From NCBI GenBank assembly GCA_017504405.1, contig JAFVRG010000001.1, positions 7,586 through 71,585 on the forward strand: 64,000 bases of DNA, in the 5' to 3' direction. Below are positions 8,584 to 62,330 of the stretch, piece by piece (position 1 is the stretch's first letter; each line of letters begins with the position of its first letter). Source of the stretch: Clostridia bacterium. GTDB lineage: Bacteria; Bacillota; Clostridia; Oscillospirales; CAG-272. The notes beneath the pieces are model-generated. The model saw only the letters and a program-made list of their open reading frames with translations, was not told the origin of the DNA and ran no database searches. Made by a program: the position numbers and the translations under genes.

Positions 8584-8733
8584 TTACCGACTGCGCCGTT
8601 GAGCATAAACCGACAAACACGGCAGATTGCTTTTGCGGATGGCGAAGGAATGGGATGACAGCACTTACCGCAAGGCTCTTGTGCCTACATAGCGCAAACC
8701 GCCGTTTGCGACCCGAGCACTTGAAATTCAGGG

Positions 8734-8762
8734 TTGACAGACGGCGGCTTTTATGTTACAAT
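8734..8762 (+). promoter_or_regulatory. Promoter of the 19-codon micro-ORF unit
   Basis: TTGACA (8734-8739), a 17-nt spacer ending in TATGT, and TACAAT (8757-8762). Confidence 0.45.
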
Positions 8763-8790
8763 AAAAGAACAATTAAAGGAGGTGGAGTTT

Positions 8791-8850
8791 ATGATTTTTC
8801 TAAGCTCTCTAAATCCTTTTCCGCCACTTGTGGCGTTTTCTATATATTAA
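8791..8850 (+). CDS. Candidate 19-aa hydrophobic micro-protein or leader peptide (MIFLSSLNPFPPLVAFSIY)
   Basis: The SD AAAGGAGGTG sits 6 nt upstream of the ATG at 8791. The stop at 8848-8850 abuts a terminator hairpin. The ORF is below the track's size cutoff. Confidence 0.3.
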   Translation: MIFLSSLNPFPPLVAFSIY

Positions 8851-8873
8851 GAGCGCGTATGCGCTCTTTTTTT
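8850..8873 (+). terminator. Intrinsic terminator after the micro-ORF
   Basis: agagcgc-gtat-gcgctct followed by TTTTTT. Confidence 0.55.
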
Positions 8874-8892
8874 GTATTTTTTTGGAAAAGTG

Positions 8893-8921
8893 TTGACTTT
8901 TACCCCCGTTTATTTTACAAT
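8893..8921 (+). promoter_or_regulatory. Promoter of beta-helix paralogue 1
   Basis: TTGACT (8893-8898), a 17-nt spacer and TACAAT (8916-8921). The TGTTGACTTTTAC context is shared with the promoter at 11114. Confidence 0.5.
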
Positions 8922-8951
8922 GGTATTGAAATTAAAAAGGAGATTTTCTTT

Positions 8952-11024: not shown

Positions 11025-11047
11025 AACGGATACCCATATCCAAAACG

Positions 11048-11087
11048 GCGGATTTTACCGACTTCAAGGTAAAAATCCGCTGTTTTT
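11048..11087 (+). terminator. Intrinsic terminator after paralogue 1
   Basis: gcggattttacc...ggtaaaaatccgc followed by a T-run. It is homologous to the terminator at 15412-15453. Confidence 0.6.
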
Positions 11088-11113
11088 ATTTCCCCTTATT
11101 TTCTGTAAATATG

Positions 11114-11142
11114 TTGACTTTTACTTATATTATTGTTAAAAT
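11114..11142 (+). promoter_or_regulatory. Promoter of beta-helix paralogues 2 and 3
   Basis: TTGACT (11114-11119), a 17-nt spacer ending in TTGT, and TAAAAT (11137-11142). Confidence 0.5.
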
Positions 11143-11173
11143 TTAACTGTAAGTAATTTTAAGGAGAGGTTTT

Positions 11174-13264
11174 ATGACAGTCTTCTACTTATCCCCAACG
11201 GGAAACGACAAAAACAGCGGCTCGAAGAGCGCACCGCTGAGAAGCTTTGCGTCAGTTCTCGAAAAAGCCCGTGCGCTCGACGGCGAGAAAACCGTAATAA
11301 TCGAAGCAGGCAGATATTTGTTCAGAGAGACCCTCGAGCTTGACAAAAGGGATAACAATACACACTTTGTTGCCGACGGTGAGGTGTATTTTGACGGTGG
11401 AGTTGTGCTCGATAATTCAAAAATTGAGGATTTTAAGGACGGAATTAAGAAAATAGACCTCTCCGACCTCGGTGTCGATTTCGGCGAGCTCGGCAACCGA
11501 GGCTTTCGCCGTCCGTACGTAAATGCACCCAGCGAGCTTTTTATAAATTCAACGGCTCAGAGCCTCGCCCGTTACCCCAAAAAAGGAATTATAAACTACC
11601 TTGAGAACGACATAGTCGATTCGGGCAGCAGACCCCGTGATAAGGACTACGGCTGTCGCCCCGCAACTCTGCGCCTCGACGGCGAGAAAATCAAAAGGTG
11701 GGCGAATGCAAAGCACGCATACCTTTGCGGTTATCCCAGTCAATCCTGGGCTGACGAGTGCGTAAAAATCGCAAAAATAGATGTAGAAAACGGCACGGTT
11801 ACAACCGACGAGCCTCACCTTTTCAGCTATCAGTTCACGCACCACTCGGGCTACTTTGTAGCAAATCTTTTGGAGGAGCTGACCGACGAGGGCGAGTACT
11901 ACATTGATATTGACGAAAAGGTGCTCTACTTCAAACCGTCAGCTGACGTTGACACAGAAGCCGCAACGCTTCAAATTTCGGTTATGGACAGTGTTATGGT
12001 AGCAATTGAGGGAGCAAGCAACGTTTCCTTTGATGGCATAACCTTCGAAAACACCCGTTCAAGTGCTATTTATATCGAGGGTGGCGACGGCTGTGTGATT
12101 AAGAACTGCGAATTCAGAAACATAGGAACTCTCGCAATTCAGATAGGACAGGGGGCATCCCCTCTCGAAAGCGGGCTGAACGACTGTCACGGCGACCATG
12201 CGCCGAATGCAAAATCCTTCCATCCCATATCACGTGAGATGGGTAGCTGGGCAGAATATATCTACGAGTTTGCCGCCTGGGATAACAACGGCGGTAAAAA
12301 TCACTCGGTTGAGGGCTGTAAAATTCACGACTGCGGAGCGGGTGGAGTTTTGCTCGGCGGCGGAAACCGCAAGAAGCTCATCCCCGCAGGCAACCGAGTC
12401 TACAACTGTGAATTCTGGTCGGTAAATCGACTCGAAAAGACAAACAAGCCCGCCGTTCACGTAACGGGTGTGGGCAATACCGTGGCTCACTGTCTCATCC
12501 ACGACCTGCCTGCAATGGCGGTATGCCTGCACGGAAACAACCATACAATTGAGTTCAACGACATACACCACGTCGTAACCGAGGCGTCCGACTCGGGCGC
12601 AGTCTGTATGGGCAGAGACATGAGCGAGATTGGACACGTTTTCAGAAACAACTACATACACCACCTCAAAAACGCTGTTGAAACCGACCTCGGCGTATGC
12701 GCTATGTATTTTGACGATTGGGATATTTTCAACACGGTATACGACAACTTCTTCTATCACATAGAGGGAGGAGGATTCGGAGTCGTGCATCACACCTGCG
12801 GAGGACTGCTCTCATTCCACAACAACTTCATTATCGACTGTGTACCGGGTATAAATCCCGATAATATGAGCAACTCATATATCCGTATGCACCGTGACCC
12901 CACGGCAATGAAGCGTGTGCACACGGTGGACGATAACGACCTCGGCGGCGTTGACGTAACCTCACCCCTCTGGCGTGAAAAATACCCATACCTCTACGAC
13001 GTCTACAAAAACGATGCACGTCCCGAGCGGGCGTATTACAACAACCTGCTCGTTTACGGCAAGTATGATGCGTTTGTAGATGCCAAGAACGGTGATTTCA
13101 CTCAGGCGGCATGGTACGGCGCACCCTCTCACAGGGACGAATACGACTGGCAGAGGCGCACCGACGTGGTTATGGGCTATGAGGACGACCTCGTACCGCC
13201 TCACAGGGTTGATTTCAAATCCATAGGTCTTATTAAAAAACAAAATCTTACCTCTAAAACATAG
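11174..13264 (+). CDS. Right-handed parallel beta-helix protein, tandem paralogue 2 (696 aa, no signal peptide)
   Basis: Colinear with paralogues 1 and 3 and the most divergent of the three. AAGGAGAGG SD. Confidence 0.8.
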   Translation: MTVFYLSPTGNDKNSGSKSAPLRSFASVLEKARALDGEKTVIIEAGRYLFRETLELDKRDNNTHFVADGEVYFDGGVVLDNSKIEDFKDGIKKIDLSDLGVDFGELGNRGFRRPYVNAPSELFINSTAQSLARYPKKGIINYLENDIVDSGSRPRDKDYGCRPATLRLDGEKIKRWANAKHAYLCGYPSQSWADECVKIAKIDVENGTVTTDEPHLFSYQFTHHSGYFVANLLEELTDEGEYYIDIDEKVLYFKPSADVDTEAATLQISVMDSVMVAIEGASNVSFDGITFENTRSSAIYIEGGDGCVIKNCEFRNIGTLAIQIGQGASPLESGLNDCHGDHAPNAKSFHPISREMGSWAEYIYEFAAWDNNGGKNHSVEGCKIHDCGAGGVLLGGGNRKKLIPAGNRVYNCEFWSVNRLEKTNKPAVHVTGVGNTVAHCLIHDLPAMAVCLHGNNHTIEFNDIHHVVTEASDSGAVCMGRDMSEIGHVFRNNYIHHLKNAVETDLGVCAMYFDDWDIFNTVYDNFFYHIEGGGFGVVHHTCGGLLSFHNNFIIDCVPGINPDNMSNSYIRMHRDPTAMKRVHTVDDNDLGGVDVTSPLWREKYPYLYDVYKNDARPERAYYNNLLVYGKYDAFVDAKNGDFTQAAWYGAPSHRDEYDWQRRTDVVMGYEDDLVPPHRVDFKSIGLIKKQNLTSKT

Positions 13265-13314
13265 GGACCATCCAACGTAAAATTATTTAAATATAACACA
13301 TCGGGAGAAAATTT

Positions 13315-15387
13315 ATGTCAAACACCTTCTATTTATCCAAAAAAGGAAACGATAAAAACAACGGTGGGAAGAGCGCACCGCTGAGAAGCTTTTCTGCAGT
13401 TCTTGAAAAAACCCGTGCGCTCGACGGCGAGAAAACCGTAATAATTGAGGCGGGCAGATATTTATTCAGAGAAACCCTTGAGCTTGATGCAAGGGATAAC
13501 AACACACACTTTATCGCTGACGGTGAGGTGTATTTTGACGGCGGAATAATCCTTGACAATTCAAAAATCGAGGATTATAGGGACGGTATCAAGAAAATTG
13601 ACCTTTCATATCTTGGCATAGAGCTTCACGGGCTTGGCAACCGAGGCTTCCGCCGTGCGTATATAAATGCACCTACCGAATTTTTCGTTGGCGGTGTGGC
13701 GCAGAAAATCGCCCGCTACCCCAAAAACGGCGTAATCAATTATGAGGAGAAGGATATAGTTGACTGCGGCAGTACGCCGATAGACGGCGACTACGCCTGC
13801 CGTCCTGCAGTTTTGCGCCTTGACGGTGAGAAAATCAAGAAATGGGCAGGCGCAAAGCACGCATATCTCGGCGGTTACCCTAAGCACGCTTGGGCTGATG
13901 AGTGCGTAAAAATTGCAAAAATAGATGCAGAAAACGGCACGGTTACAACCGAGCAGCCGCACCTTTTCGGCTATCAGTTTACGCACCATTCGGGCTATTA
14001 TGTTGTAAATCTCTTAGAGGAGCTGACCGACGAGGGCGAATACTATATCGACATTGACGAAAATGTGCTCTATTTCAAGCCATCAGCTGACGTTGACCTC
14101 GAAACCGCAACGCTTCAGATTTCCGTAATGGACAAGGTTATGGTAGCAATTGAGAACGCCGAAAACGTTTCCTTTGAGGGCATAACATTTGAAAACACCC
14201 GTAACAGCGGCGTTTATATCGAGGGCGGCGACGGCTGCACCGTAAAGAATTGCGTTTTCAGAAATATGGGTATCCTTGCCGTTCAGATAGGACAGGGCGC
14301 AACGCCGCTTGAGCACGGTCTCAACGACTGTCACGGCGCTCATTCGCCGTTGGCGAAGCCGTTTAAGCCTCTGTCCCGAGAAATGGGAAGCTGGCACGAA
14401 TACATTTACGAATTTGCCGCTTGGGATAACAACGGCGGCAAAAATCACTCTGTTGAGGGGTGTAAGATTTACGATTGCGGAGCGGGCGGAATATTGCTCG
14501 GCGGCGGCAACAGGAAAAGCCTCACACCCGCAAACAACAGAGTCCACAACTGCGAATTCTGGTCCACCAACCGCCTCGACAAAACCTACAAGGGCGCTGT
14601 CAATATGATGGGTGTCGGCAATACCGTATCTCATTGCTATATGCACGATTTACCCGCCTTTGCAATCTATCTGCACGGAAACGACCACACAATCGAATTT
14701 AACGATATAACGAGGGTATGTATCGAGACCTCGGATTCAGGCGCAATTTATATGGGCAGAGATATGAGCGAGGTTGGAAACGTATTCAGAAACAATTACA
14801 TTCACGACCTCGAAAACACCATCGAAACAGGGCTTGGCGTTTGCGCAATTTACTTTGACGACTGGGATATATTTAACGCCGTTTACGACAACTTTTTCGT
14901 AAACATCAAGGGCGGCGGCTTCTGCGTAATCCATCACACCTGCGGAGGGCTGCTCTCATTCCACAACAACTTTATCGTTGACTGCGTGCCCGGAATTCAG
15001 CCTGATAACAAGAGCAATTCATACATCTATATGCACCGAGACCTTTTGGCTATGAAGCGTGTGCATACGGTTGACGAAAACGACCTCGGCGGCGTTGACG
15101 TGACCTCACCTATCTGGCGTGAGAAATACCCCTATCTCTACGAAACCTACAAAAACGATTACCGTCCCGAGTGGATGTACTACAACAACGCACTGCTCTA
15201 CCATAAGTACGACTGCTTTGTGGATGCAAGGAACGGCGATTTCACGCAAATCGACGGCTTCCGTGAGAAATTCTACCGTGACGAATACGACTGGCAGAGA
15301 CGTACTGACGTAATAATGGGCTACGAGAACGACCTCGTTCACCCCCACAGGGTTGATTTCAAATCCATAGGTCTTATCAAGAAATAA
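13315..15387 (+). CDS. Right-handed parallel beta-helix protein, tandem paralogue 3 (690 aa, no signal peptide)
   Basis: Colinear with paralogues 1 and 2. Only 50 nt and no terminator separate it from paralogue 2, so the two are probably co-transcribed. Confidence 0.8.
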   Translation: MSNTFYLSKKGNDKNNGGKSAPLRSFSAVLEKTRALDGEKTVIIEAGRYLFRETLELDARDNNTHFIADGEVYFDGGIILDNSKIEDYRDGIKKIDLSYLGIELHGLGNRGFRRAYINAPTEFFVGGVAQKIARYPKNGVINYEEKDIVDCGSTPIDGDYACRPAVLRLDGEKIKKWAGAKHAYLGGYPKHAWADECVKIAKIDAENGTVTTEQPHLFGYQFTHHSGYYVVNLLEELTDEGEYYIDIDENVLYFKPSADVDLETATLQISVMDKVMVAIENAENVSFEGITFENTRNSGVYIEGGDGCTVKNCVFRNMGILAVQIGQGATPLEHGLNDCHGAHSPLAKPFKPLSREMGSWHEYIYEFAAWDNNGGKNHSVEGCKIYDCGAGGILLGGGNRKSLTPANNRVHNCEFWSTNRLDKTYKGAVNMMGVGNTVSHCYMHDLPAFAIYLHGNDHTIEFNDITRVCIETSDSGAIYMGRDMSEVGNVFRNNYIHDLENTIETGLGVCAIYFDDWDIFNAVYDNFFVNIKGGGFCVIHHTCGGLLSFHNNFIVDCVPGIQPDNKSNSYIYMHRDLLAMKRVHTVDENDLGGVDVTSPIWREKYPYLYETYKNDYRPEWMYYNNALLYHKYDCFVDARNGDFTQIDGFREKFYRDEYDWQRRTDVIMGYENDLVHPHRVDFKSIGLIKK

Positions 15388-15619: not shown

Positions 15620-18352
15620 ATGAAAAAGAAAATCCTAAGTTTACTACTCATACTTGCAACAGTAGCGGCGCTACTGCCCGCAATTGCTCTCGTTTCCTTT
15701 GCGTCGGGAGATGAATACACTCCCGATTATGAGGACTATGAGAGCCTGTGGGTGCAGGACGGCTTGTCATCCTTTGTCGATATGACGAATATGACAGGTA
15801 CCGACGATGCCCGTCTCGTTACGGTTGACGGTTCAACCTACGTGCAGATTAAGGACGGAGCAAACGCAGGTAAGTATTATCTTCTTGCAGGCGAGGCTTC
15901 CGTAAAGGACGGCAAGCTGCATCTTTCCACCGCAGAGGATCCCTCAGCAGCAGGCGAGTGGTACAAGTCAGAGGGAGTTATGTTTGGAAACGTATATAGC
16001 TATGACGGCTCCGCCATGACTGCTGGAACTGACGCATCGGTTGTCAGAAACGAGGCGAAAAACAACGCCTACACCGTTGACTACAATGCTTACGTTGCCG
16101 GAATTACATACGCAGACGGAACAGACGCAGGAATAAATATATTCTCCAAGCTGATTTCAGGCCCTTACAGCATCGGTTGCTTTAACTACTTCCCGTCGAA
16201 CACAGGAATTAATTTCTGTTGGAGCTTTGGTAATAGAACTACGGCAATCGACAGAAATGTATTTTTCAGCACTAATATCGTCTATGACGGCAGAATTGTT
16301 CTCAGAGATAACAACGATGCAAAGAAAACCCAGGGCGATTCATACCATATGGCACTGACAGTAGGCTTTGACGAGAGTGCCGGAACAGCATCCTTCATGC
16401 CGGTAACCAACGGAGCTGTCAGCAGCTTCTCATGGAGTGCGCTTGCTGCGAGTGAGCTCAACAACACGAGAATGTCGGCATCAGCTTCCAATCTCCTGCT
16501 GTCCTCGACATCACAGGAATTCCATTTTATTCGTGTTTATAACCGTGCCCTCACCCGTGAAGAGGTTGCTAAAAACCACTTTGCCGACCTTGTTTATTAC
16601 TACGGCGTTGACCTGAGAAGCTACGACCTCTCAGCTATGAGTGAGGATTTCTATAACAGCTTCACAAAATACGATATTGGTTCTACCGACAAGGAAGCTC
16701 TTGCAAAGACGGTAAGAGATGAATACTATAAGGAGCAAAATCTCGACCTCTATTACGATGACGGTCATTTGATGGCGTTTGTTGACGTAACCGACAACGA
16801 TAACAACAATCTGGTCAGAATTTCCCCCGTAAACGACAGCACCGCCGCAGGCTACCACAACTACATAAAGATAATTGACGGAGACCTCGCAGGCAAGTAC
16901 TATATGACGGGTGTATCGAGCAACATTCAGACAACGAGTCTTCAGGGCATAGTTGCCGCAAGCTCAAACATATCCCACGGAAAATCAACCTACAAAATTC
17001 ACGTAGGAACGAGCTTTGAAGAGAGCGTTATCTTTACCAACACGGGAGCTATCGGCGCACTTGACGGTTATATGAATCCCGCAAGCTCCGAGGGCTTCAC
17101 AATAGAGGCGGCAACCAAATTTATAACCTCTATTCATAGTGGCGTTGCATTCGCAACCATGATGTTCAATGCGAGCAAGTCCTCAGACAATCATTTGGCA
17201 GGAATTGCAAACAGACACAGTGGCTCGGCATCGGCTCTCATTATGGGCACTTACGGCAGTGTTGAGGCTCAGTCCGGTATGGGCACAATTGGCGACGACC
17301 TCTCGGCAACAGTTGCTTCACACGTAAGGTATGATGATTTTACCGATTACAACGCAATCCGCAGTGCAATCGCCCTCACGCCTAAAAATGATGCTAACGC
17401 AAATTCGGGATTTGTAAAAATAGCAGAAAGCAGTGCGGCGGCTGCAACCTGGAACACTCTCACCAATATCGGCGAAAATGACGACATTGTTGTAAATGCG
17501 GCAGGCCACAGCTACTACTATATAAGAACCTATGACTGCGAGCTCTCCGAGGCGCAGATGAAGCAGAATCTGCTCGCAGATATTGCACGTTATAACGCAA
17601 TGGATATGAGCGATTTCCGAGGTCTCTCCGATGCTGAAAAGGCTGTTGTTTACGACACGGCTCTTGCATACGGAGTTGGCGATGCAGGAGCAAAAGAGGC
17701 AATCGAGGCAAAAATTGCTGAGGTTGCATCGCAGAAAGACGCAGTTGAGGCAGCGGCTACTGAGGCACTCACCTTTGTGGGCTATCAGGCAAGGCTGCAC
17801 GGCAACGTCGGCGTAAGAAGCGTATTCAACCTCGATACGACGAAGCTTGGCGATTTTGAGCTTGTAGCATACGGCGCTATGGTCGGTATGGCTAAGACGG
17901 GCACAGATTTTGATACCTATACGGTAAATTACGACGGCGAGAATATCACGTCGGCAAATGCAGCAGTAATCAGCTCACTCGACAGTGGCTTCAAGACGTT
18001 TGGTACGGCAGAAAAGGCGCACATCCTCAAAAAGAGCGAGGGACTTGATAACTACTATATGTTTGCGTACACCGTTGATTACATAAACGGCTCGATAGAC
18101 GAGAACGGAGCAATAGACGGTCAGTCGTACATAGAAGCAAACAAGGATACCGAAATGTTCTTCCGTGCATTTGTAATTGTTGAAGCAAACGGCATTTACT
18201 ATACGGTTTACGCTGACGGAGCGAGCGAAAGCTATGACAGCACCAGTGTTTCTCTTACCGAGATTTCCGAATACTACAAGGCGTACAACGAAGGCGAATT
18301 TGCCGACAATGTATGTATAAAGGCCGTCGTTGGCAACAGCGACGAGGAATAA
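15620..18352 (+). CDS. Secreted 910-aa protein with two LamG/ConA-like modules and a conserved C-terminal domain (family member A)
   Basis: Signal peptide MKKKILSLLLILATVAALLPAIALVSFASG. Modules end in FIRVYNRALTREEVAKNHFADLVYYYG (about 16521-16605) and YIRTYDCELSEAQMKQNLLADIARYN (about 17531-17615). These match the terminal strand of Laminin_G_3-type domains (vRiYnraLs.eEi). The C-terminal domain FVGYQARLHGNVGVRSVF...EMFFRAFVIVE is shared with the next two large genes. Confidence 0.75.
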   Translation: MKKKILSLLLILATVAALLPAIALVSFASGDEYTPDYEDYESLWVQDGLSSFVDMTNMTGTDDARLVTVDGSTYVQIKDGANAGKYYLLAGEASVKDGKLHLSTAEDPSAAGEWYKSEGVMFGNVYSYDGSAMTAGTDASVVRNEAKNNAYTVDYNAYVAGITYADGTDAGINIFSKLISGPYSIGCFNYFPSNTGINFCWSFGNRTTAIDRNVFFSTNIVYDGRIVLRDNNDAKKTQGDSYHMALTVGFDESAGTASFMPVTNGAVSSFSWSALAASELNNTRMSASASNLLLSSTSQEFHFIRVYNRALTREEVAKNHFADLVYYYGVDLRSYDLSAMSEDFYNSFTKYDIGSTDKEALAKTVRDEYYKEQNLDLYYDDGHLMAFVDVTDNDNNNLVRISPVNDSTAAGYHNYIKIIDGDLAGKYYMTGVSSNIQTTSLQGIVAASSNISHGKSTYKIHVGTSFEESVIFTNTGAIGALDGYMNPASSEGFTIEAATKFITSIHSGVAFATMMFNASKSSDNHLAGIANRHSGSASALIMGTYGSVEAQSGMGTIGDDLSATVASHVRYDDFTDYNAIRSAIALTPKNDANANSGFVKIAESSAAAATWNTLTNIGENDDIVVNAAGHSYYYIRTYDCELSEAQMKQNLLADIARYNAMDMSDFRGLSDAEKAVVYDTALAYGVGDAGAKEAIEAKIAEVASQKDAVEAAATEALTFVGYQARLHGNVGVRSVFNLDTTKLGDFELVAYGAMVGMAKTGTDFDTYTVNYDGENITSANAAVISSLDSGFKTFGTAEKAHILKKSEGLDNYYMFAYTVDYINGSIDENGAIDGQSYIEANKDTEMFFRAFVIVEANGIYYTVYADGASESYDSTSVSLTEISEYYKAYNEGEFADNVCIKAVVGNSDEE

Positions 18353-18368
18353 AAGGAGAGTGAACAGA

Positions 18369-18506
18369 ATGAAGAAATATAATAAGCCCACATTCCAAAT
18401 CATAAAGGTCAAGGCGGAGGAGTTTATAACCCTCTCGATTAACAGTCAGGGTAACAACGACAATACCGTAGGTATTTGGGAATTGCCAATGGATTGGGAT
18501 CTGTAA
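18369..18506 (+). CDS. Unannotated 45-aa peptide gene, copy 1 (MKKYNKPTFQIIKVKAEEFITLSINSQGNNDNTVGIWELPMDWDL)
   Basis: The SD AAGGAGAG lies 8 nt upstream of the ATG. A paralogue sits at 22648-22785. By my count the two differ at 11 synonymous and 6 nonsynonymous codons. The ORF is below the track's size cutoff. Confidence 0.65.
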   Translation: MKKYNKPTFQIIKVKAEEFITLSINSQGNNDNTVGIWELPMDWDL

Positions 18507-18559: not shown

Positions 18560-21500
18560 ATGAAGAAGAAAATTTTAAGCTTATTTCTCGTTCTTGCAAC
18601 GGTTGTGACGCTTTTGCCCGCAATGGCAGTCGTTTCCTTTGCAAACGATGAGGAATATGTACCTACCTACGAGGACTACAAGGACCTATGGTACGACGAC
18701 GGACACCTCGTTGCCTTTGTTGACGCAACAGACCTCTCAAACCTTGTAATCAACAAGGCGACGGATAACTCAACCGCATCGGGAATTCACAACTACATTA
18801 AAATCACGGGCGGTAAACTCGCAGGCGAGTACTATATGATAACCAACGAGAAGGGCTCGTTGACCGCACAGGGCGGTCTGCCCGCAATTACTGCGAGCCA
18901 GACCTCAAAATCCACGTGGTCCTCAAGCTCCGATTACAAAATCCATATCGGAAACAGCTTCGCAGCAAACGAGATTGCGGGCGAAACCGCTATCGGTGCG
19001 CTTGAGGGTGTATTCAATCCCGGCACCTCAGAAGGCTTTGCAATAGATGCCTCTATCAAATTTAATTCTGCCTCATCTGCAAATGCCGGATACTACGCAT
19101 CGATAATAAACGGCACAAGCTTAGGTATTTCGGGAATGGTTTACAGCCATACTTCCCCCTCGAAGCTTTTCATTGGAAAATACGGGGCGTTGCCTCTTTC
19201 TAAAACCGCTGAAACAGCATACGGAACAGATGCGAGCGTTACCGTGGTTTCAATGGTTGCGTATGACGAATACAGCGGAACTAAGGTCACAGGAAACGCT
19301 TCCCGTAACGCCCTTATGCTTACCAAGGACGGCACAATCTCTTGTGTGATCGCAGATAACAGCAACCCTAACTATCAGTATCATACGATAGGCACCATTA
19401 ACGAGGGCGACGATATATGGGCGCAGGGCTACGGCTTTGACTACCGCTATATCAGAATTTACGACTGTGCTGTTGACGAAGAAATCATAAGACAGAACTA
19501 TTTTGCAGATATGGCGTATTTCAACGGCTTTGATGTTACGGGCTTCACAGAGCTTCCTCAAAGCACCAAGAGTATTATAATTAATGAAGCAATGGCTCAC
19601 GCAATTGATGAAGAGGGCCTTAAAGAAATCTTTGACACGCTCATTGCAGACGCCGTCACAGAGTATAAGACATCCTACGACTACTACGCATCAAAGCATC
19701 TTTGGTACGACGACGATCATCACCTGATTGCATTCCTCGACCTCGACAACATTCCTGAAAGCGAGGTTGGTCACTCCGCTTATTCTGCATACGCTACCGG
19801 AACGAGCAAGGGCGTTGATGAAAACGTCCACAGGCTCGTATACTACTACGGTGAAACAACCGATTCGGTGGTCGTTCAGAACGGAGCAAAAAGCCGTCGC
19901 TTTACATATGCAAAAATCATCGGCGGAGAAAACGCAGGCAAATGGTATATGCTCCAATCTCTCGGCAATGACCGTACGTTCGGAGAGCTTTCCGAGGCAG
20001 GAACGATTACCGAGGACTCTATGCTCGAGCAGATGATAGGATGCCAAGTCTCCGGTAAAAACGGTGGATATAAGATTCATATCGGATACGCCTTCACCAC
20101 CACCGACGTAACGAGCGGAGTTGCGCTCGACACTGTCCCGCTTGACAATATGTTCAAGCCTGATTCCGAGGCAGACAACGCATACACCGTCGAAACCGTA
20201 CGAACCCGTGATATTTTTACGGGTACCTTTACAACCTCATTCGCCTACGGTTCTCTTGTCAACAGGTTCATACACAGAAATGGCTCAGACGCAGCGGGAT
20301 ATATATCCTACAACTACGATGGAAACCCTTGGACGGGTGCTGTTCTCGGAGATAACTCCGCCCACCTTGCGGATATACTCACCTATACCTCCTGCGTTGA
20401 CAATGCAGCAGGAAACGGAACGAAGGATATAACCGCTATCCGCTCGGGAATGATGGTGTCAAATACAGGAACGGTTTACACCACAAAGAATGATTCATCC
20501 TTAACCCCCGTAGCTCCCAATGCCACAAATGCACCCGCACTCTACTCCGCACAGGCTATTGACGGTATGATGGCAGGCTTTAACAACGGAAGCAATTTCT
20601 ACATATATGCAGAGCAGTCTGCTGTTAAGTATGTCAGAATTTACGACGTAGCCTTGACACAGGAGCAGTATTTGCAGAACCACTTCGCTGACCTCTGCTA
20701 TCACTACGGTCTCAACATAGACGGCTACTTGAAGCTCGGCGACAGCAAGCTCGGCGACAGCTATAAAAACAAGCTCATTTCGGCATTTGCCTCCTATTCG
20801 ATAGGAATAGACGGAACGAAGGAAGCTTTGCAGACAATGCTCGACGAGAAGGCGCAGGAATACCTCTCCTCGTACGATTACTACGCGGAAAACGGACTAT
20901 GGTACGACGACGGTCACCTCATTGCATTCATCGACGTAGACAATCTTTCCGCTGACCAGATAGGCTTTACACGTATCGAAAACGGATCTGCTTCTCAGCT
21001 TGACGAGAACGACCGCTTTGCATTCTATCAGGGACAGACCACCGACGCTACAATAACCCAGAACGCTGGTAATACCCGTTACTTTGCGTACTTTAAGTCA
21101 ATAGGCGGACAGAGCGCAGGCAAGTGGTATATGGTTCATTCCACCCACCCAAGCGGACAGGTGACTCACTCCTTTGGAACAGGTCTTAGAGACGGAATCT
21201 ACACGGCTGATAACCTGCTCGAACAGTTCAACACCACAAACAACGGTTTATACACCGTACATTTGGGCTACGCATTCTCAACCGATGAGATTTTGGCAAC
21301 GGGAACCGATCTGACCAAAACAACTCTTCATACAATGTTTGTTCCCAACGGACAGGCAAACAATAAATTTACCGTAGAGGAAATGTCTGATATATATCTG
21401 CCGGTAGCCGATACTCGAGTCGGCTCATCCGCACTGAAGGTTCTCGGCAAGGAAGCAACCAGATACTTTACAGCCAGCCAGTCCACCTATTCCAGCGGCA

Positions 21501-22630
21501 CGAACAAATGGTCGGGTATTGGAGCAAACAACAACAATGCTTCTAACTTCATAACCGAGGAAGGCAAAAACAATATTCTTCATGCGGCTCACATAGTTGA
21601 ATACCTTTCTTACGAGAACAGCATTCTCTCCGCAAACCGCATGGCTACTATATATAACCCCACCACAAATAAGCTCGTGCATGAAGTAAACTCTGAGGCA
21701 AACCGTTATACGTCATCAGCCATTACGTTCGATGCGGCTACTGCATATAGCGCAGATTTCTCCATTGGCATTCAGTACCGTACTCTTAACTATCTGCGTT
21801 TGTATGACACAAGCCTTACCGATGCTCAGTTTAAGCAGAATCACTTTGCCGACATAGTATACATGCACAAGATGGATATTTCCGAGTTTGCAACCCTGTC
21901 TGATGTCGAGAAGCTTGGAATTTACGAATTTGCATCCTCGCTGGAAGCAAATGACGAGGGCGTAGTAGATCTTATCAACGCACAAATAAAGAAGACCATT
22001 GCAAACCGCAAGGCAGCAACCGCAGCAGCTCTTTCCGCTATGTCCTTCGTAGGCTATCAGGCAAGACTGCACACCAACGTCGGTGTAAGAAGCGTATTTA
22101 AGGTTAATACCAACGCTATCTCGCAGTATACTGTAAAGGCGTACGGAGCGCTCGTAGGCTTCGCAAAGAACAACTCCACGTTCTCAGATTTCACCGTTTC
22201 CTTTGACGGCGAAAAAGTAACGTCCAAAAATGCATCGGTAACAGCATCCGTTGATGCAAGCTTCAAGACCATTGAGGGAGCAGAGAAAGAATTTATACTC
22301 GGAAAGGGAAATGATTCCACTCTGTTTGCATACACGGTTGACTTCATCGAAAACGGAACCATCGCAAAGGACGGAACGTTTGTAGAGGGCGAAGGCTTTG
22401 AAAATCACATAGCCGACAGTAAGGATACCGAAATGTTCTTCCGTGCATTTATAATCCTTGAATATGAGGGCTGCTACCATGTGGCTTACGTTGACGGTGC
22501 AAGCAAAAACTATGATAATACCAGCGTATCTCTCGCCGAAATTTCCAATTACTACAATACATACAATAACGGCGAATTTGCCAATAACGTATGTATAAAG
22601 GCTGTTGTTGGAAACAATGACGAGGAATAA
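18560..22630 (+). CDS. Secreted 1356-aa protein with three LamG/ConA-like modules and the conserved C-terminal domain (family member B)
   Basis: Signal peptide MKKKILSLFLVLATVVTLLPAMAVVSFA. Modules start with LWYDDGHL(V/I)AF(V/I/L)D and end with YIRIYDCAVDEEIIRQNYFADMAYFNG, YVRIYDVALTQEQYLQNHFADLCYHYG and YLRLYDTSLTDAQFKQNHFADIVYMHK. Confidence 0.75.
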   Translation: MKKKILSLFLVLATVVTLLPAMAVVSFANDEEYVPTYEDYKDLWYDDGHLVAFVDATDLSNLVINKATDNSTASGIHNYIKITGGKLAGEYYMITNEKGSLTAQGGLPAITASQTSKSTWSSSSDYKIHIGNSFAANEIAGETAIGALEGVFNPGTSEGFAIDASIKFNSASSANAGYYASIINGTSLGISGMVYSHTSPSKLFIGKYGALPLSKTAETAYGTDASVTVVSMVAYDEYSGTKVTGNASRNALMLTKDGTISCVIADNSNPNYQYHTIGTINEGDDIWAQGYGFDYRYIRIYDCAVDEEIIRQNYFADMAYFNGFDVTGFTELPQSTKSIIINEAMAHAIDEEGLKEIFDTLIADAVTEYKTSYDYYASKHLWYDDDHHLIAFLDLDNIPESEVGHSAYSAYATGTSKGVDENVHRLVYYYGETTDSVVVQNGAKSRRFTYAKIIGGENAGKWYMLQSLGNDRTFGELSEAGTITEDSMLEQMIGCQVSGKNGGYKIHIGYAFTTTDVTSGVALDTVPLDNMFKPDSEADNAYTVETVRTRDIFTGTFTTSFAYGSLVNRFIHRNGSDAAGYISYNYDGNPWTGAVLGDNSAHLADILTYTSCVDNAAGNGTKDITAIRSGMMVSNTGTVYTTKNDSSLTPVAPNATNAPALYSAQAIDGMMAGFNNGSNFYIYAEQSAVKYVRIYDVALTQEQYLQNHFADLCYHYGLNIDGYLKLGDSKLGDSYKNKLISAFASYSIGIDGTKEALQTMLDEKAQEYLSSYDYYAENGLWYDDGHLIAFIDVDNLSADQIGFTRIENGSASQLDENDRFAFYQGQTTDATITQNAGNTRYFAYFKSIGGQSAGKWYMVHSTHPSGQVTHSFGTGLRDGIYTADNLLEQFNTTNNGLYTVHLGYAFSTDEILATGTDLTKTTLHTMFVPNGQANNKFTVEEMSDIYLPVADTRVGSSALKVLGKEATRYFTASQSTYSSGTNKWSGIGANNNNASNFITEEGKNNILHAAHIVEYLSYENSILSANRMATIYNPTTNKLVHEVNSEANRYTSSAITFDAATAYSADFSIGIQYRTLNYLRLYDTSLTDAQFKQNHFADIVYMHKMDISEFATLSDVEKLGIYEFASSLEANDEGVVDLINAQIKKTIANRKAATAAALSAMSFVGYQARLHTNVGVRSVFKVNTNAISQYTVKAYGALVGFAKNNSTFSDFTVSFDGEKVTSKNASVTASVDASFKTIEGAEKEFILGKGNDSTLFAYTVDFIENGTIAKDGTFVEGEGFENHIADSKDTEMFFRAFIILEYEGCYHVAYVDGASKNYDNTSVSLAEISNYYNTYNNGEFANNVCIKAVVGNNDEE

Positions 22631-22647
22631 TGAAGGAGGGTAAATAA

Positions 22648-22785
22648 ATGAAAAAGTACGAAAAACCCACGGCTGAAATCGTAAAGATTAAGGCAGAGGA
22701 ATTTATAACCCTCTCGATAAACAGTCAGGGTAACAACGACAATACCGTAGGTATTTGGGAATTGCCCATGAATTGGGACCTTTAA
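22648..22785 (+). CDS. Unannotated 45-aa peptide gene, copy 2 (MKKYEKPTAEIVKIKAEEFITLSINSQGNNDNTVGIWELPMNWDL)
   Basis: The SD GAAGGAGGG lies 8 nt upstream of the ATG at 22648. It occupies the same position relative to its LamG gene as copy 1, but the frame offset to the upstream stop differs. That argues against a read-through or frameshift extension. Confidence 0.65.
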   Translation: MKKYEKPTAEIVKIKAEEFITLSINSQGNNDNTVGIWELPMNWDL

Positions 22786-22820
22786 TAGCGTTAACGGCAC
22801 ACGCTAATTCTAAACCAACA

Positions 22821-22850
22821 AAAGCTCCGAGCAATCGGAGCTTTTTCCTT
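22821..22850 (+). terminator. Intrinsic terminator after peptide gene 2
   Basis: aaagctccga-gcaa-tcggagcttt followed by a T-rich tail. Confidence 0.55.
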
Positions 22851-23014
22851 TATTTATATTTTCCGTACAATTCCTCAAAAACAACAATATGTCAAGTCTA
22901 CCAAACAATTTGATATTGTTATTATTGTTGTACTATGTTATATTATACTTAAGATATTATGCCCTCGCATTAATTTGTGTGCATATTGTCAAAAACCAAA
23001 GTGAGGTAACAGTA

Positions 23015-26000
23015 ATGAAAAGAAAAGTATTAAGCCTGTTTCTCGTACTCGCTACGGTGATTTGCGCCCTACCTGCGCTCTCACTCGTGTCCCTTGCATC
23101 GGAGCCTATCGAGAAAAACTACGACTACTACAAGGATTTGTGGTACGACGAGGGACATCTCGTTGCCTTTGTTGACGCAACAGACCTCTCAAACCTTGTA
23201 ATCAACAAGGCGCAGGATAACTCAACCGCATCGGGAATTCACAACTACATTAAAATCACGGGCGGCAAACTCGCAGGCGAGTACTATATGATAACCAACG
23301 AGAAGGGCTCGTTGACCGCACAGGGCGGTCTGCCCGCAATTACTGCGAGCCAGACCTCAAAACCCACGTGGTCCTCAAGCTCCGATTACAAAATCCATAT
23401 CGGAAACAGCTTCGCAGCAAACGAGATTGCGGGCGAAACCGCTATCGGTGCGCTTGAGGGTGTATTCAATCCCGAAGCTTCGAGCATAGCTTCAATAGAA
23501 GCTGCTATCAAATTCAATTCTGCATCATCTGCAAATGCCGGATATTATGCCTCGGTAATCAACAGCACAAACGAGGGTATTTCGGGAGCGGTTTACAATC
23601 ACGATAGCACTGCATCGAAGGTTTTTGTAGGAAAATACGGAGCCCTCAAAGGAAGCAAAACAACAACCGGAGCTATCGGTAAGGATGCAGGGGTAGTGCT
23701 CCTCTCTACCCTTACCTTCGGCGAATACAGCGGAACTCAGGTCACGGGAAATGCCGTTCGTGAGGCGCTTATGATGGATGTGTCGGGCATTACCTCTTAC
23801 TTCATGGAGGCAAACAAGAACCCCAATTATCAGTATCATACGATAGGCACCATTAACGAGGGCGACGATATATGGGCTCAGGGCTACGGCTTTGACTATC
23901 AGTACATACGCATTTACGATTGTACAATAGACGAGGCAACACTGAAAAAAAATCACTTTGCTGACCTCTGCTACTACTACAAGCTTGACGTTGACAATGA
24001 CGTCGTTAAGTATTATGGTGCAAATTTCTACGATAGGTTTGCGAAGATGGAGATAGGAAAGCTCTCGGCGGGTGAAGTTGAGATGATTCAGACCCTGATC
24101 GAAGATCCCGACGCAGATTTCTCAGAGCCGATAGAGTTTGTTCACGACGAAAATTATGACAAGCACGCATTTTTGTGGTATGACAACGACCATCTCGTTT
24201 CGTTTGTCGATATGAGCAATCTAAACACAGCAGGCGCTGTTGCGACCGTCGGCTCATCGACCTCCGAGCAGATTGACGCTGCCCGAGTTGTGATAGGCAG
24301 CTCGGTAACCGCTACCTCTAACGGAACTCACTCATATGCAAAGATAATCGGCGGCAAAAATGCGGGATACTACTACATGCTCGGCGCAGATGCCGATTCC
24401 AACATGCTCAGCGTAACCTCGGACGGATACCTCGACTTTGATGCTACCTTTGCTATTTGGGGCTCTAACAATGCAGGTATTTATACTCAATACCTCTTCC
24501 CAAGGAGCTCGGTTGATGCTACCTTCGGCGGAATCTCCAACCTCGGAGCCCAGGTAAAGTCGGTTGTACGAGATTCCATGTTCGACCCCACCGCTATTCA
24601 GCTGTACGACAAATCCTACGGTACATACACCCTCAATGAGGTTATGGTTGTAGATACAAATACCTACTACACCAGCGGATATGCAAGATGGCTGGCAAAG
24701 GGAGGCGAAGCTGACGCTTACTCCATGGATAACAAACCCGGAAGCTTCAAGAACATTTTGTTCACGTCCGCAGCAAATATGGGAGTTCTTTATAACAAAT
24801 CAAATTCTACCGACATAACCGCTATCGGCACAGGTGTACAGACCTCAAAGGGAGCGTTTGTTTACGCAGATAATAGGGAGATTACAAACGGAGATGCGCT
24901 CACTCTAACCTACACCGTGACCTTCCAGTCACCGACGTTTTTCAAAACCGATGTCACTGCAATCACTGAAAAAGCAACTAAGATATTAAAGGTAAACCTC
25001 GGCAAGTGCAACGGATATACGTACAAAGATGACATAAGGGACCGTTTGGTTGTCAGCGGTTACAAAATGGCATACATCAGACTCTATGACTGCAAGCTTA
25101 CCGATGCGCAGATTATGCAGAACCATTTCGCAGACCTCTGCTACTACTACAACCTTCTCACCGACGAACAGCTCGAATTTCTCCGTACAAAGGGCGGATA
25201 TGTTCTGACCGATGAATTTTACAGCGAGTTTGTTAAGTTCAATATAGGCTCCTGCGATGAAAACAAAATAAACAGTATGAAGGCTCTCATAGTTGCAGCA
25301 ATTGACCGAGCAAATGCGGCAGAATCCAATGCTATCGCTGAGAAAATTTCAGGCGAGTTCGGCATTTTCGCACAAATATCAGTGAGCAAGGCTGCGGCAG
25401 ATAGCATATATAACAGCTATGATGCAACCCTCTCTCACGTAAAGAGCGTGCTCGACAGCGCTGAGGCAGAGGTAAAAACCACGAGCGATGCCGAGAAGCG
25501 TGAGTTTATCAACGAGCAGAGGGTCATTATAGAAAATGTGTATATTGAAATGCTTAATCTCAAGCGCTCTATGAAGTCCTACTATCTCAATGCCGAGGAT
25601 GCTTTTAATGCAATCAAAAATATCAACAGCAACGCCTCTGCTATGCAAAAGGACGACTTGCTGATGGCGCTCACTGTATGCAAGGCGGCGGCTGCATTTG
25701 CCGACGAGAGATATTTGCAGGTTGCGTTCTTCCGGGCTCTTATCGATACCCTGAAGGCAAAGGCCGACGATGCAGAAATAACCTACCGTGCAGTTGATGC
25801 AATTGTTTCAACCAACGTTAATGACTTTATAAAATTTGCGGGATATCAGGTTCGTGTCACCGACTATGTTGCTATCCGTGCGCTATTTGTATGCGACGAG
25901 ACTGCGATAGAGGCAGGCTACACTTATGGACAGAATACGTACGACATCGTATCCTACGGAATACTCTGTTTCAAAAAGGGAGAAGAGGCATCGGTATCCT

Positions 26001-29279: not shown

Positions 29280-29295
29280 TGAGGAAACAGAAAAA

Positions 29296-54645: not shown

Positions 54646-54721
<76 letters not shown>

Positions 54722-62231: not shown

Positions 62232-62330
62232 AGTATTTCCTCTTTGTATATAAATATTTTCTTTTATATTATAGCACACATTTGTGAAAAATCAATTGTT
62301 TTCCGGCAAGTGTCATTATTTGTTTACAAC

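What the first reader, a model, noticed from the sequence alone, without database searches (positions are those of the whole stretch)
18369..18506. Unannotated 45-codon peptide genes trail two of the LamG genes and show a purifying-selection signature
An SD-led 45-codon ORF lies directly after the stop of LamG gene A and again after LamG gene B (22648-22785). Copy 1 reads MKKYNKPTFQIIKVKAEEFITLSINSQGNNDNTVGIWELPMDWDL. Copy 2 reads MKKYEKPTAEIVKIKAEEFITLSINSQGNNDNTVGIWELPMNWDL. A codon-by-codon comparison gives 11 synonymous differences: aag/aaa, aaa/aag, tat/tac, aag/aaa, aca/acg, gcg/gca, gag/gaa, att/ata, cca/ccc, gat/gac and ctg/ctt. Against these are 6 mostly conservative replacements: N5E, F9A, Q10E, I12V, V14I and D42N. 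The short spacers upstream are not alignable, yet both keep an SD at the same distance. The ORFs sit in different frames relative to the upstream stop (+1 versus +2), which argues against a read-through or frameshift tail. There is no signal peptide and no Cys. The charged N-terminal half loosely resembles leader regions of small clostridial peptides I have seen, but that recollection is unverified. The C-terminus is invariant and Trp-rich: GIWELPM(D/N)WDL. No maturase, exporter or kinase gene is adjacent. Possible roles are an adaptor, chaperone or inhibitor of the cognate LamG protein, or a signalling or RiPP-like precursor processed by enzymes encoded elsewhere.
Basis: seen in the sequence. 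Interest (0 to 1): 0.8.

Follow-up and report, generated by a model that had tools for sequence, protein, structure and literature searches.

The report
Lasso-leader-like peptide genes trailing secreted-protein genes
Two real, strongly conserved 45-codon genes sit directly behind the genes of two giant secreted proteins in an uncultured gut Clostridia bacterium; their first 15 residues look like the recognition leader of clostridial lasso-peptide precursors, but no maturation enzyme is nearby, so they are either orphan natural-product precursors or a new kind of small partner protein.

Summary
Two 45-codon ORFs (18369-18506 and 22648-22785) each follow a large secreted-protein gene, each with its own Shine-Dalgarno site. 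They differ by 11 synonymous and 6 replacement codons (dN/dS about 0.09, dS about 0.9). About 18 related peptide clusters exist in public data. All are 43-64 aa and unnamed, and all come from uncultured Eubacteriales or Clostridia. In every locus recovered (over 14), the peptide lies 10-20 nt after a 870-1450-aa signal-peptide protein. Those proteins share an uncharacterised C-terminal helix plus beta-sandwich domain (CTD). One MAG has five such pairs.

The peptide evolves 2-10 times more slowly than that neighbouring domain. Its first 15-16 residues match a profile of published clostridial lasso-precursor leaders (the [Y/W]xxPx-hydrophobic RRE-binding motif). The rest fits lasso-core rules: Thr at -2, invariant Ser1 and Asp9, Ile14/Trp15, 23 residues. 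No RRE, leader peptidase or cyclase gene lies in the 64-kb window or in any flank examined, so membership of the lasso family is unproven.

Best reading (about 40%): an orphan RRE-dependent RiPP precursor co-transcribed with secreted proteins. Main rival: an unmodified small partner protein. The 'LamG' label has no sequence-search support.

The parts
15620..18352 (+). Gene A: 910-aa secreted protein. It has a Sec-type signal peptide, repeated modules of about 330 aa, and a C-terminal helix plus beta-sandwich domain (CTD) ending ...NVCIKAVVGNSDEE.
   Evidence: ORF list and sequence. No Pfam, NCBIfam or PDB sequence match. The CTD is shared with every peptide-linked protein. The CTD model has pLDDT 68 and no PDB fold match.
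18353..18358 (+). Shine-Dalgarno site AAGGAG of peptide gene 1, 10 nt before the ATG.
   Evidence: Read directly from the sequence. An equivalent SD is present in all related loci.
18369..18506 (+). Peptide gene 1: 45 codons plus stop, MKKYNKPTFQIIKVKAEEFITLSINSQGNNDNTVGIWELPMDWDL.
   Evidence: dN/dS. Homologues. The exact peptide occurs in 3 further assemblies.
18369..18434 (+). Leader-like half of peptide 1 (residues 1-22): basic, with Y4-x-x-P7-x-F9 and T21 at the putative -2 position.
   Evidence: The lasso-leader profile aligns to residues 1-12/16 at 13.7 bits; 0 of 2000 shuffles reach that score. The motif [Y/W]xxPx[L/V/I/A/F/Y] is described in PMC13381572.
18435..18503 (+). Core-like half of peptide 1 (residues 23-45): acidic. 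S23 and D31 are invariant and 8 residues apart, I36/W37 are bulky, and the C-terminal tail is variable.
   Evidence: Invariant columns P7, S23, D31, W37 and L39 across 17 sequences, with no indels between residues 7 and 40. pI values.
18560..22630 (+). Gene B: 1356-aa paralogue of gene A, with a signal peptide, three modules and the same CTD.
22633..22639 (+). Shine-Dalgarno site AAGGAGG of peptide gene 2, 8 nt before the ATG.
   Evidence: Read directly from the sequence.
22648..22785 (+). Peptide gene 2: 45 codons plus stop, MKKYEKPTAEIVKIKAEEFITLSINSQGNNDNTVGIWELPMNWDL.
   Evidence: The exact peptide occurs in at least 6 further contigs and is called as a gene there.
22820..22855 (+). Intrinsic-terminator-like stem-loop (11 pairs) with a T-run, closing the A-pep-B-pep transcription unit.
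   Evidence: Similar stem-loops follow the peptide in L001, L004 and L008.

Best explanation
Each 45-codon ORF is a genuine, independently translated small gene. The most likely product is a precursor peptide of the RRE-dependent (lasso-type) RiPP kind.

Proposed mechanism:
1. Residues 1-22 form a basic leader. Its Y-x-x-P-x-hydrophobic beta-strand motif would be bound by a PqqD-like RiPP recognition element.
2. Residues 23-45 form an acidic 23-residue core, SINSQGNNDNTVGIWELPM(D/N)WDL.
3. Cleavage after Thr21-Leu22 would free the Ser23 amine. That amine could form a 9-residue macrolactam with the invariant Asp31, with Ile36/Trp37 acting as plug residues.
4. The maturation enzymes would be encoded elsewhere in the genome.
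5. The precursor genes ride at the 3' end of operons for large, carbohydrate-locus-associated secreted proteins. The peptide would therefore be made whenever those proteins are induced.

Shown: the gene is real, it is under strong purifying selection, its position is obligate, the leader resembles lasso leaders, and the spacing of the invariant residues is fixed.

Inferred: RRE binding, cleavage, cyclisation, maturation in trans, and the biological purpose of co-expression.
For: (1) It is coding. dN/dS is 0.03-0.14 with dS of 0.3-1.7. The peptide's pN is 2-10 times lower than that of the adjacent CTD at similar pS. Every locus has an SD and ATG.

(2) Leader resemblance. An HMM built only from 29 published predicted lasso precursors of rumen Firmicutes (PMC7533575 Table 3) aligns to residues 1-15/16: 'MKtWntPeiEeLnIn' against 'MKKYNKPTxExVKIK'.
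- 12 of 17 family members score 10-20 bits.
- The best of about 1000 background N-termini scores 6.2 bits.
- Shuffles reach the observed score 0/2000 times for copy 1 and 9/2000 for copy 2.
- Ruminococcus precursors begin MTYNKPSFEK..., almost the same start.
- The motif equals the [Y/W]xxPx[L/V/I/A/F/Y] consensus bound by discrete lasso and LPP RREs (PMC13381572).

(3) Core rules.
- S23 and D31 are invariant and always 8 residues apart.
- There are no indels between P7 and residue 40 in 17 sequences.
- Thr sits at -2 in the main group.
- The core is 23 residues with a ring of 9, the same as the predicted R. albus 8 core.
- The tail after W37-x-L39 varies in length and sequence.

(4) The peptide has no confident fold of its own (pLDDT 64, pTM 0.19), as expected of a precursor.

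(5) Paralogous peptides within one genome stay 91-96% identical while their neighbouring CTDs are only 43-67% identical. This fits a constraint from one shared processing or target partner rather than from each neighbour.

(6) P0044 has the same 23-residue N-terminal module joined to an unrelated C-terminal half. It sits behind an unrelated secreted protein. A conserved leader with a variable core is the RiPP pattern.
Against: No RRE/PqqD, transglutaminase-like leader peptidase, Asn-synthetase-like cyclase, radical-SAM enzyme or kinase was found in any of the following:
- the 64-kb window;
- 10 kb beyond its left edge;
- the flanks of over 14 related loci.

I know of no lasso or other RiPP family whose precursor genes sit obligately behind a structural-protein gene. 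That strict linkage is not predicted by this model.

The profile match stops at residue 16 and does not run through the cleavage site. The leader would be 2 residues longer than the canonical one (P at -16, against -14 in Ruminococcus and -12 in Bacillus).

Residue 1 would be Ser rather than the usual Gly.

Thr(-2) is replaced by Leu or Ala in the most distant members.

No NCBIfam or Pfam lasso-precursor model hits the family.

The putative core is more conserved than the leader, which is unusual for RiPPs.
Confidence: 0.4

Rival explanations
1. An unmodified small partner protein. The 45-mer is not processed. It folds only on binding, donating its N-terminal beta-strand and its S..GxxDNTVGIW(D/E)L hairpin to the conserved face of the upstream protein's C-terminal beta-sandwich, or to a shared third component. 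It would act as a cytoplasmic escort, anti-folding or targeting factor, or as an inhibitor of the giant secreted protein.
For: - Linkage is strict. The peptide sits 10-20 nt after a CTD-bearing protein in all 14 or more loci of the main family, with 2-5 pairs per genome.
- Peptide and CTD divergence are correlated (Pearson 0.75 on pN).
- The peptide is disordered when modelled alone.
- The CTD has an invariant polar patch, F.G(Y/F)QAR...N.G.RS, that could be a binding site.
- There is a WD-repeat-like hairpin motif in exact register: G-x-x-D-x-T-V-x-I-W-D-L.
- No maturation genes are nearby.
Against: - Topology. The upstream proteins have classical Sec signal peptides, while the peptide has none. 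The two would meet only before export.
- Peptides of paralogous pairs stay 91-96% identical while their CTDs drop to 43-67% identity, so the constraint is not paralogue-specific.
- Peptide-less paralogues (gene C, L005_1174, L007_1178) still carry a homologous CTD, at E 1e-11 to 1e-13.
- The P0044 peptide follows a protein without the CTD.
- No natural CTD-peptide fusion was found among 1.84 billion representatives.
- The correlation is expected from co-inheritance alone.
Confidence: 0.3
2. An exported linear signalling peptide (pheromone-like). The conserved C-terminal Trp-rich part would be released and sensed. This would give positive feedback or cell-cell coordination of the carbohydrate-locus operon, possibly through the AraC-type regulators found next to several loci.
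For: - The peptide gene is the last cistron of an inducible operon.
- AraC-family regulators lie beside the pair in L001, L003/L006, L008 and L015.
- The C-terminal half is acidic and Trp-containing, as in some Gram-positive pheromones. This last point is from general knowledge and was not tested.
Against: - There is no signal peptide, no double-glycine leader, and no dedicated exporter or receptor of a known peptide-sensing class nearby.
- The whole length of the peptide is conserved, not just a short C-terminal segment.
- AraC regulators are absent from the window and from several other loci.
- AraC regulators are common beside sugar-utilisation genes generally.
Confidence: 0.1
3. An immunity or antidote peptide for a toxic C-terminal domain of the upstream secreted protein, in the manner of polymorphic toxin-immunity pairs.
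For: - The gene order matches: a large secreted protein followed directly by a tightly coupled small cytoplasmic product.
- There are several pairs per genome.
Against: - The CTD model is a helical stalk plus an Ig-like beta-sandwich with no enzyme-like fold match.
- The 'immunity' is far more conserved than the 'toxin', and is nearly identical across paralogues whose CTDs have diverged. This is the opposite of toxin-immunity co-diversification.
- The neighbourhood is carbohydrate-related, with beta-helix proteins, esterases and glycoside hydrolases.
Confidence: 0.05

Closest known systems
Lasso-peptide precursors (LasA) of Clostridia, especially the predicted Ruminococcus albus 8 and R. flavefaciens precursors (MTYNKPSFEKISSFKESTM|GVWFGKFKD..., PMC7533575)
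   Same: - The N-terminus starts M-x-(x)-Y-N-K-P-(S/T)-F and fits the [Y/W]xxPx-hydrophobic RRE-binding motif.
- Thr sits at -2.
- An acidic residue sits at core position 9.
- The core is 23 residues with aromatic residues after the ring.
- Overall length is about 42-45 aa.
- Several copies occur per genome.
   Different: - No B1 (RRE), B2 (peptidase), C (cyclase) or D (ABC) genes are adjacent.
- The gene always trails a giant secreted-protein gene.
- The putative first core residue is Ser, not Gly.
- The leader is 2 residues longer.
- The core is more conserved than the leader.
- The profile similarity ends at residue 16.
Linear polyphosphorylated peptide (LPP) precursors of Bacillota (PMC13381572)
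   Same: - The leader has YxxPx(V/L), followed by a run of alternating hydrophobic residues, an acidic residue and a Ser (consensus YxxPxVLxHQxIxFETxxS).
- The leader is recognised by a discrete RRE.
- The N-terminus is conserved while the C-terminus can vary (compare P0044).
   Different: - LPP clusters encode an RRE, an HPr-kinase-like kinase, an SPase-I-like peptidase and glycosyltransferases next to the precursor. None is present here.
- The H-Q and F-E-T positions of the LPP consensus are not conserved in this family.
WD40 repeat (B-C beta-hairpin, ...SGSxDxT(I/V)xxWD(L/V))
   Same: G28-x-x-D31-N-T-V-x-I-W37-(D/E)-L39 is in exact register with the WD-repeat hairpin. Exhaustive HMM searches pull out WD40 proteins through many weak repeat matches.
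   Different: - Only about 12 residues match.
- Single-repeat matches are not significant (best single stretch about 8.6 bits, E about 15).
- The peptide lacks the fourth strand and the GH dipeptide.
- It does not fold into a blade when modelled.
- I treat this as motif-level resemblance, not membership.
Scattered RiPP precursors matured in trans (for example prochlorosin ProcA genes processed by a single ProcM). This is from general knowledge and was not checked here.
   Same: Several near-identical-leader precursor genes are dispersed in one genome, away from any maturase.
   Different: Those precursors are not tied to one particular neighbouring gene family. The enzyme class and leader type also differ.

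Membership tests
Lasso peptide (RiPP class) | Leader with the [Y/W]xxPx[L/V/I/A/F/Y] RRE-binding motif | tested here: met
   Y4-x-x-P7-x-(F/A/L/V/I) is present in all members (F replaces Y in P0031). The HMM of 29 published clostridial leaders aligns to residues 1-15/16 at 10-20 bits, against a background maximum of 6.2 bits. The motif definition comes from PMC13381572.
Lasso peptide (RiPP class) | Conserved Thr at the penultimate leader position (-2) | tested here: inconclusive
   T21 is at -2 if cleavage falls at L22|S23, in the 13 closest members. It is Leu in P0025, P0043 and P0030, and Ala in P0031. Non-Thr exceptions are known (title and abstract of PMC10368454). The cleavage site itself is only inferred.
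Lasso peptide (RiPP class) | Core residue 1 is a small residue (Gly, Ala, Ser or Cys) and an Asp or Glu sits at position 7-9 for the macrolactam | tested here: met
   S23 and D31 are invariant in 17 sequences, always 8 residues apart, which gives a ring of 9. That Ser is allowed at position 1 rests on general knowledge of caulonodin-type peptides and was not checked here.
Lasso peptide (RiPP class) | Co-localised lasso cyclase (Asn-synthetase-like C) and leader peptidase (B, or B1 RRE plus B2 transglutaminase-like) | tested here: not met
   None was found in the 64-kb window, in the 10 kb beyond its left edge, or in the flanks of L001-L023.
Lasso peptide (RiPP class) | Cyclase, peptidase and RRE present anywhere in the same genome | not testable with these tools
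   Whole MAGs could not be scanned.
Lasso peptide (RiPP class) | Threaded lariat product (mass of the core minus 18 Da, resistant to heat and protease) | not testable with these tools
   This needs mass spectrometry. Predicted monoisotopic masses are 2599.16 Da (copy 1) and 2598.18 Da (copy 2).
Linear polyphosphorylated peptides (LPP) | Precursor next to an RRE, an HPr-kinase-like LppK and an SPase-I-like LppS | tested here: not met
   No such domains occur in the window or the loci (same calls as for the lasso enzymes). The leader matches the LPP consensus only in its YxxPx-hydrophobic part.
WD40 repeat | Four-stranded blade of about 40 aa with GH...WD, significant on its own and occurring in tandem | tested here: not met
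   Only a 12-residue hairpin motif matches. Per-repeat matches are not significant. The peptide is a single copy with no GH. The AF2 model shows only a 3+3-residue hairpin.
LamG / Laminin_G_3 (claimed for the upstream genes) | Match to the Pfam LamG or Laminin_G models, or to solved concanavalin-A-like lectin domains | tested here: not met
   There is no Pfam or NCBIfam hit at E<=10 for genes A, B or C. Neither protein A (E<=1) nor the 5-module profile (E<=10) finds a PDB sequence. The fold of the module itself was not modelled, so a remote LamG-like fold is not excluded.
Polymorphic toxin-immunity pair | Variable C-terminal toxin domain with a co-varying cognate immunity protein | tested here: not met
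   The peptide is nearly invariant (91-96% identity) across paralogues whose CTDs are 43-67% identical. The CTD model has no enzyme-like fold match.

The most novel reading that the evidence does not exclude
The peptides are a new class of 'hitch-hiking' RiPP precursors, or RRE-leader-bearing small proteins, whose genes are hard-wired to the 3' ends of operons for giant secreted, glycan-locus proteins. A gut Clostridia cell would then produce a lasso-like, or otherwise RRE-processed, peptide in step with its extracellular machinery, for example to protect or police a public good. Alternatively, the lasso-type leader has been co-opted as a beta-strand docking tag for a non-RiPP partner. Either case would be a new way of organising the genes and functions that use the RRE-leader recognition module.
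Probability: 0.3. Interest if true: 0.8.

Novelty: new variant of a known kind. Interest (0 to 1): 0.62.

Why it matters
RiPP genome mining starts from enzymes and looks for precursors next to them. A conserved precursor-like family that never sits next to enzymes, and always sits behind one family of secreted proteins, would be invisible to those pipelines.

If these peptides are matured in trans, that would show lasso-type chemistry being regulated as part of carbohydrate or surface-protein operons in uncultured gut Clostridia. It would also yield a new, highly conserved 23-residue scaffold.

If instead the peptide is an unmodified partner, it would be a case of the lasso-type leader motif being reused for protein-protein docking. 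It would also give a first functional handle on a family of 900-1450-aa secreted proteins that currently have no annotation at all.

Either way, the pair is a clean two-gene module that can be tested directly.

Tried and rejected
(1) Read-through or frameshift tail. Rejected: the frames are +1 and +2, and every locus has its own SD and ATG.

(2) Recent gene conversion as the cause of the similarity. Rejected: dS between the two window copies is 0.9.

(3) A known RNA element. Rfam finds only a tRNA elsewhere in the window.

(4) Known protein families. Pfam, NCBIfam, PHROGs and PDB sequence searches found nothing for the peptide.

(5) WD40 homology. The large hits in the exhaustive search are WD40 proteins that match a 12-residue motif over many repeats. 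This is motif-level resemblance only.

(6) Natural fusion of the peptide to the CTD ('Rosetta stone'). None was found. P0008 and P0033 are unrelated repeat proteins.

(7) Complex prediction from a paired CTD-linker-peptide alignment.

(8) CTD fold assignment. The model has pLDDT 68, and Foldseek returns only generic helix plus Ig-like sandwich matches with TM <= 0.3.

(9) Peptide fold alone. No confident fold.

(10) More loci from JGI metagenomes. Searches with the peptide and with the CTD both found nothing. The homology search with the CTD returned only 2 proteins.

(11) Nearby ABC exporters as a lasso 'D' gene. They belong to a conserved housekeeping block (ABC pair plus the SpoVA operon) that is also seen in L011, and they carry no peptidase domain.

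(12) Walking beyond the right edge of the window. The edge protein is not on record.

(13) Literature searches for orphan or remote lasso precursors found nothing directly comparable.
Full report
OBSERVATION

They differ at 17 codons, 11 synonymous and 6 non-synonymous, with 84.8% nucleotide identity.

Each ORF has its own Shine-Dalgarno site: AAGGAG 10 nt before the ATG for copy 1, and AAGGAGG 8 nt before it for copy 2. The ORFs lie in frames +1 and +2 relative to the upstream stop codons. A six-frame search finds no third copy in the window.

Copy 1 lies 53 nt before gene B. Copy 2 is followed by an 11-bp stem-loop with a T-run at 22820-22845. The likely transcription unit is therefore gene A, peptide 1, gene B, peptide 2, terminator.

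IS IT A GENE?

Yes. Nei-Gojobori analysis gives dN/dS = 0.085 between the two window copies, with dS = 0.90. That dS rules out recent gene conversion as the reason for the similarity. Across 12 loci, every pair with unsaturated dS gives dN/dS of 0.03-0.14. More distant pairs are saturated at synonymous sites yet keep the protein sequence.

The peptide's non-synonymous divergence is 2-10 times lower than that of the last 210 codons of the upstream gene, at similar synonymous divergence. Rfam finds no RNA family in the region.

The exact window peptides recur in at least nine other metagenome assemblies, where automated gene callers call them.

DISTRIBUTION

A word-indexed search of 5.8 billion proteins and an exhaustive HMMER search of 1.84 billion representatives find only a small family. 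It comprises about 18 clusters of 43-64 aa. None has a Pfam domain, and the only names are 'hypothetical protein', from Clostridia or Eubacteriales MAGs.

The residues P7, S23, D31, W37 and L39 are invariant. K2, Y4, L22, G28, N32 and G35 are nearly so. There are no indels between residues 7 and 40.

The GTDB species-representative collection holds the family in one genome only, which has five copies on five contigs. JGI metagenome contigs hold none.

CONTEXT

In every locus of the main family, the peptide gene starts 10-20 nt after the stop of a large gene and is preceded by an AGGAGG-type SD. A stem-loop with a T-run often follows. The loci include relatives with only 33-50% peptide identity.

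The upstream proteins are 870-1450 aa and have a classical Sec signal peptide. They contain two to four copies of a module of about 330 aa and a shared C-terminal domain of about 280 aa (24-58% identity to gene A's).

These proteins match nothing in Pfam or NCBIfam, even at E<=10. Protein A alone and a profile of the module both find nothing among PDB sequences.

An AlphaFold2 model of the C-terminal domain has mean pLDDT 68 and pTM 0.62. It shows a helical stalk, an Ig-like beta-sandwich and a disordered tail. Foldseek against the PDB finds no informative match (TM <= 0.3).

The neighbouring genes are largely carbohydrate-related:
- right-handed beta-helix proteins;
- an acetyl-xylan esterase;
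- a GDSL esterase;
- GH94 and GH42 glycoside hydrolases;
- sugar kinases;
- AraC regulators, beside four of the loci.

WHAT THE PEPTIDE RESEMBLES

(a) WD40 repeats. The exhaustive search also returned many WD40 proteins. They match only G28-x-x-D-N-T-V-x-I-W-(D/E)-L, which is in exact register with the WD-repeat B-C hairpin. Each single match is insignificant, and the peptide lacks the rest of a blade. This is motif-level resemblance only.

(b) Lasso-type RiPP leaders. The N-terminus carries Y4-x-x-P7-x-hydrophobic. This is the [Y/W]xxPx[L/V/I/A/F/Y] motif that discrete RiPP recognition elements of lasso and LPP pathways bind (PMC13381572). Published predicted lasso precursors of rumen Firmicutes look very similar, for example R. 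albus 8 MTYNKPSFEKISSFKESTM|GVWFGKFKD... (PMC7533575).

- It aligns to residues 1-15/16 of the family.
- It scores 10-20 bits for 12 of 17 members.
- The best of about 1000 background N-termini scores 6.2 bits.
- Composition-preserving shuffles reach the observed score 0/2000 times for copy 1 and 9/2000 for copy 2.

Beyond the leader, the family obeys the lasso core rules:
- Thr at -2 if cleavage is L22|S23 (in the main group);
- an invariant small residue (Ser) at position 1;
- an invariant Asp at position 9;
- bulky Ile14/Trp15;
- a core of 23 residues, the same ring size and length as predicted for R. albus;
- a variable tail after W-x-L.

The leader half is basic (pI 8.1-9.7) and the core half acidic (pI 4.05). 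Modelled alone, the peptide has no confident fold (pLDDT 64, pTM 0.19).

WHAT ARGUES AGAINST A SIMPLE LASSO ASSIGNMENT

No RRE, transglutaminase-like peptidase, Asn-synthetase-like cyclase or any other RiPP enzyme is encoded in the 64-kb window. None lies in the 10 kb beyond its left edge, where the source contig ends, or in any flank examined.

The nearby ABC exporters belong to a conserved housekeeping block with the SpoVA operon.

The profile match does not extend through the cleavage site. The leader would be two residues longer than in Ruminococcus. Curated lasso-precursor models do not hit. Above all, the RiPP model does not predict the obligate position behind one protein family.

PARTNER-PROTEIN RIVAL

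The strict linkage suggests that the peptide works with the upstream protein. Several observations weaken a paralogue-specific partnership:
- Within one MAG, peptides are 91-96% identical while their neighbouring C-terminal domains are 43-67% identical.
- Peptide-less paralogues (gene C and its orthologues) still carry a homologous C-terminal domain (E 1e-11 to 1e-13).
- P0044 shares the 23-residue N-terminal module but has an unrelated C-terminal half. It follows an unrelated 451-aa secreted protein that lacks the domain.
- The upstream proteins are exported by Sec, whereas the peptide has no export signal.
- No fused version exists among 1.84 billion representatives.

VERDICT

The finding is real and is not explained by any curated family. 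The best-supported reading (about 0.4) is an orphan precursor peptide that carries a lasso-type RRE leader. It would be matured in trans and co-transcribed with giant secreted proteins.

The main rival (about 0.3) is an unmodified small protein that docks by beta-strand addition on the upstream protein or on a shared partner. Signalling-peptide and immunity readings are less likely.

Membership of the lasso class is not claimed. The defining enzyme neighbourhood was tested and not met, and the genome-wide presence of the enzymes could not be tested.

I classify it as a new variant of a known kind, with interest 0.62. The two-gene module is sharply defined, rare and testable, and enzyme-centred RiPP mining would miss it.

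Noticed in passing
window 8655-15387: Three tandem paralogous genes for right-handed beta-helix (pectate-lyase-like) proteins of 789, 696 and 690 aa, 78-88% identical to one another. Two more distant beta-helix genes lie at 26412-31680. Together with genes A, B and C they form a block of about 23 kb of large secreted-protein genes, all on the + strand.
   Followed up: partly
window 22889-26410 (gene C): The mechanical ORF start at 22889 adds 42 implausible residues. The signal peptide begins at M43 (about 23015), and gene callers give 1131 aa. Gene C is a paralogue of gene B in its N-terminal 750 aa. It has only a divergent version of the C-terminal domain and no trailing peptide, and gene D starts 2 nt after its stop.
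   Followed up: partly
L003/L006 2362-4277 (GCA_045593885.1, JAZNXN010000034.1): The upstream large gene is split here into 287-aa and 347-aa ORFs, either a frameshift or deletion, or an assembly error. The trailing peptide gene is intact and 96% identical to its paralogues. If the split is real, the peptide is maintained without an intact partner.
   Followed up: no
L021 1564-3127 (GCA_045593265.1): P0044 (62 aa) shares the N-terminal 23 residues (MKKYTKPTVEVVNLKSSNDIATS) but has an unrelated C-terminal half with no Asp at position 9. It follows an unrelated 451-aa secreted protein ending ...EIVEE, and transposase genes flank it. This hints at a wider class of 'trailing' peptides with a common leader.
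   Followed up: partly
L009 and L010 1-311 (GCA_964325715.1), L005 1-272: Several MAG contigs begin or end inside or just after the large gene, so the peptide sits at a contig edge. The repeated large genes evidently break assemblies, so copy numbers per genome are probably under-counted.
   Followed up: no
window 18369-18506; family-wide: The motif G-x-x-D-N-T-V-G-I-W-(D/E)-L is in perfect register with the WD40 B-C hairpin, and the invariant S, D and W echo the WD40 structural tetrad. The family also carries one or two W-x-L triplets. This is probably convergent, but it pulled dozens of WD40 proteins into the HMM search.
   Followed up: partly
window 33071-36784 (-): A 1237-aa protein with Listeria-Bacteroides repeats, BspA-type LRRs and DUF4886, convergent with the secreted-protein block. 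It is another large surface or secreted protein in the same neighbourhood.
   Followed up: no
window 742-2478 (-) and L032 11737-13686: A heterodimeric ABC exporter pair next to a SpoVAC/SpoVAD/SpoVAEB operon. The same block lies beside the large-gene/peptide pair of another species (L011). This is conserved synteny rather than a dedicated peptide exporter.
   Followed up: partly
window 54646-54718 (+): A single tRNA gene, the only Rfam gathering-threshold hit in the window.
   Followed up: no
window 60492-63944 (-): Two ORFs of 595 aa and 537 aa with no Pfam match at E<=0.01. The 537-aa product is not on record in the gene-position index.
   Followed up: no
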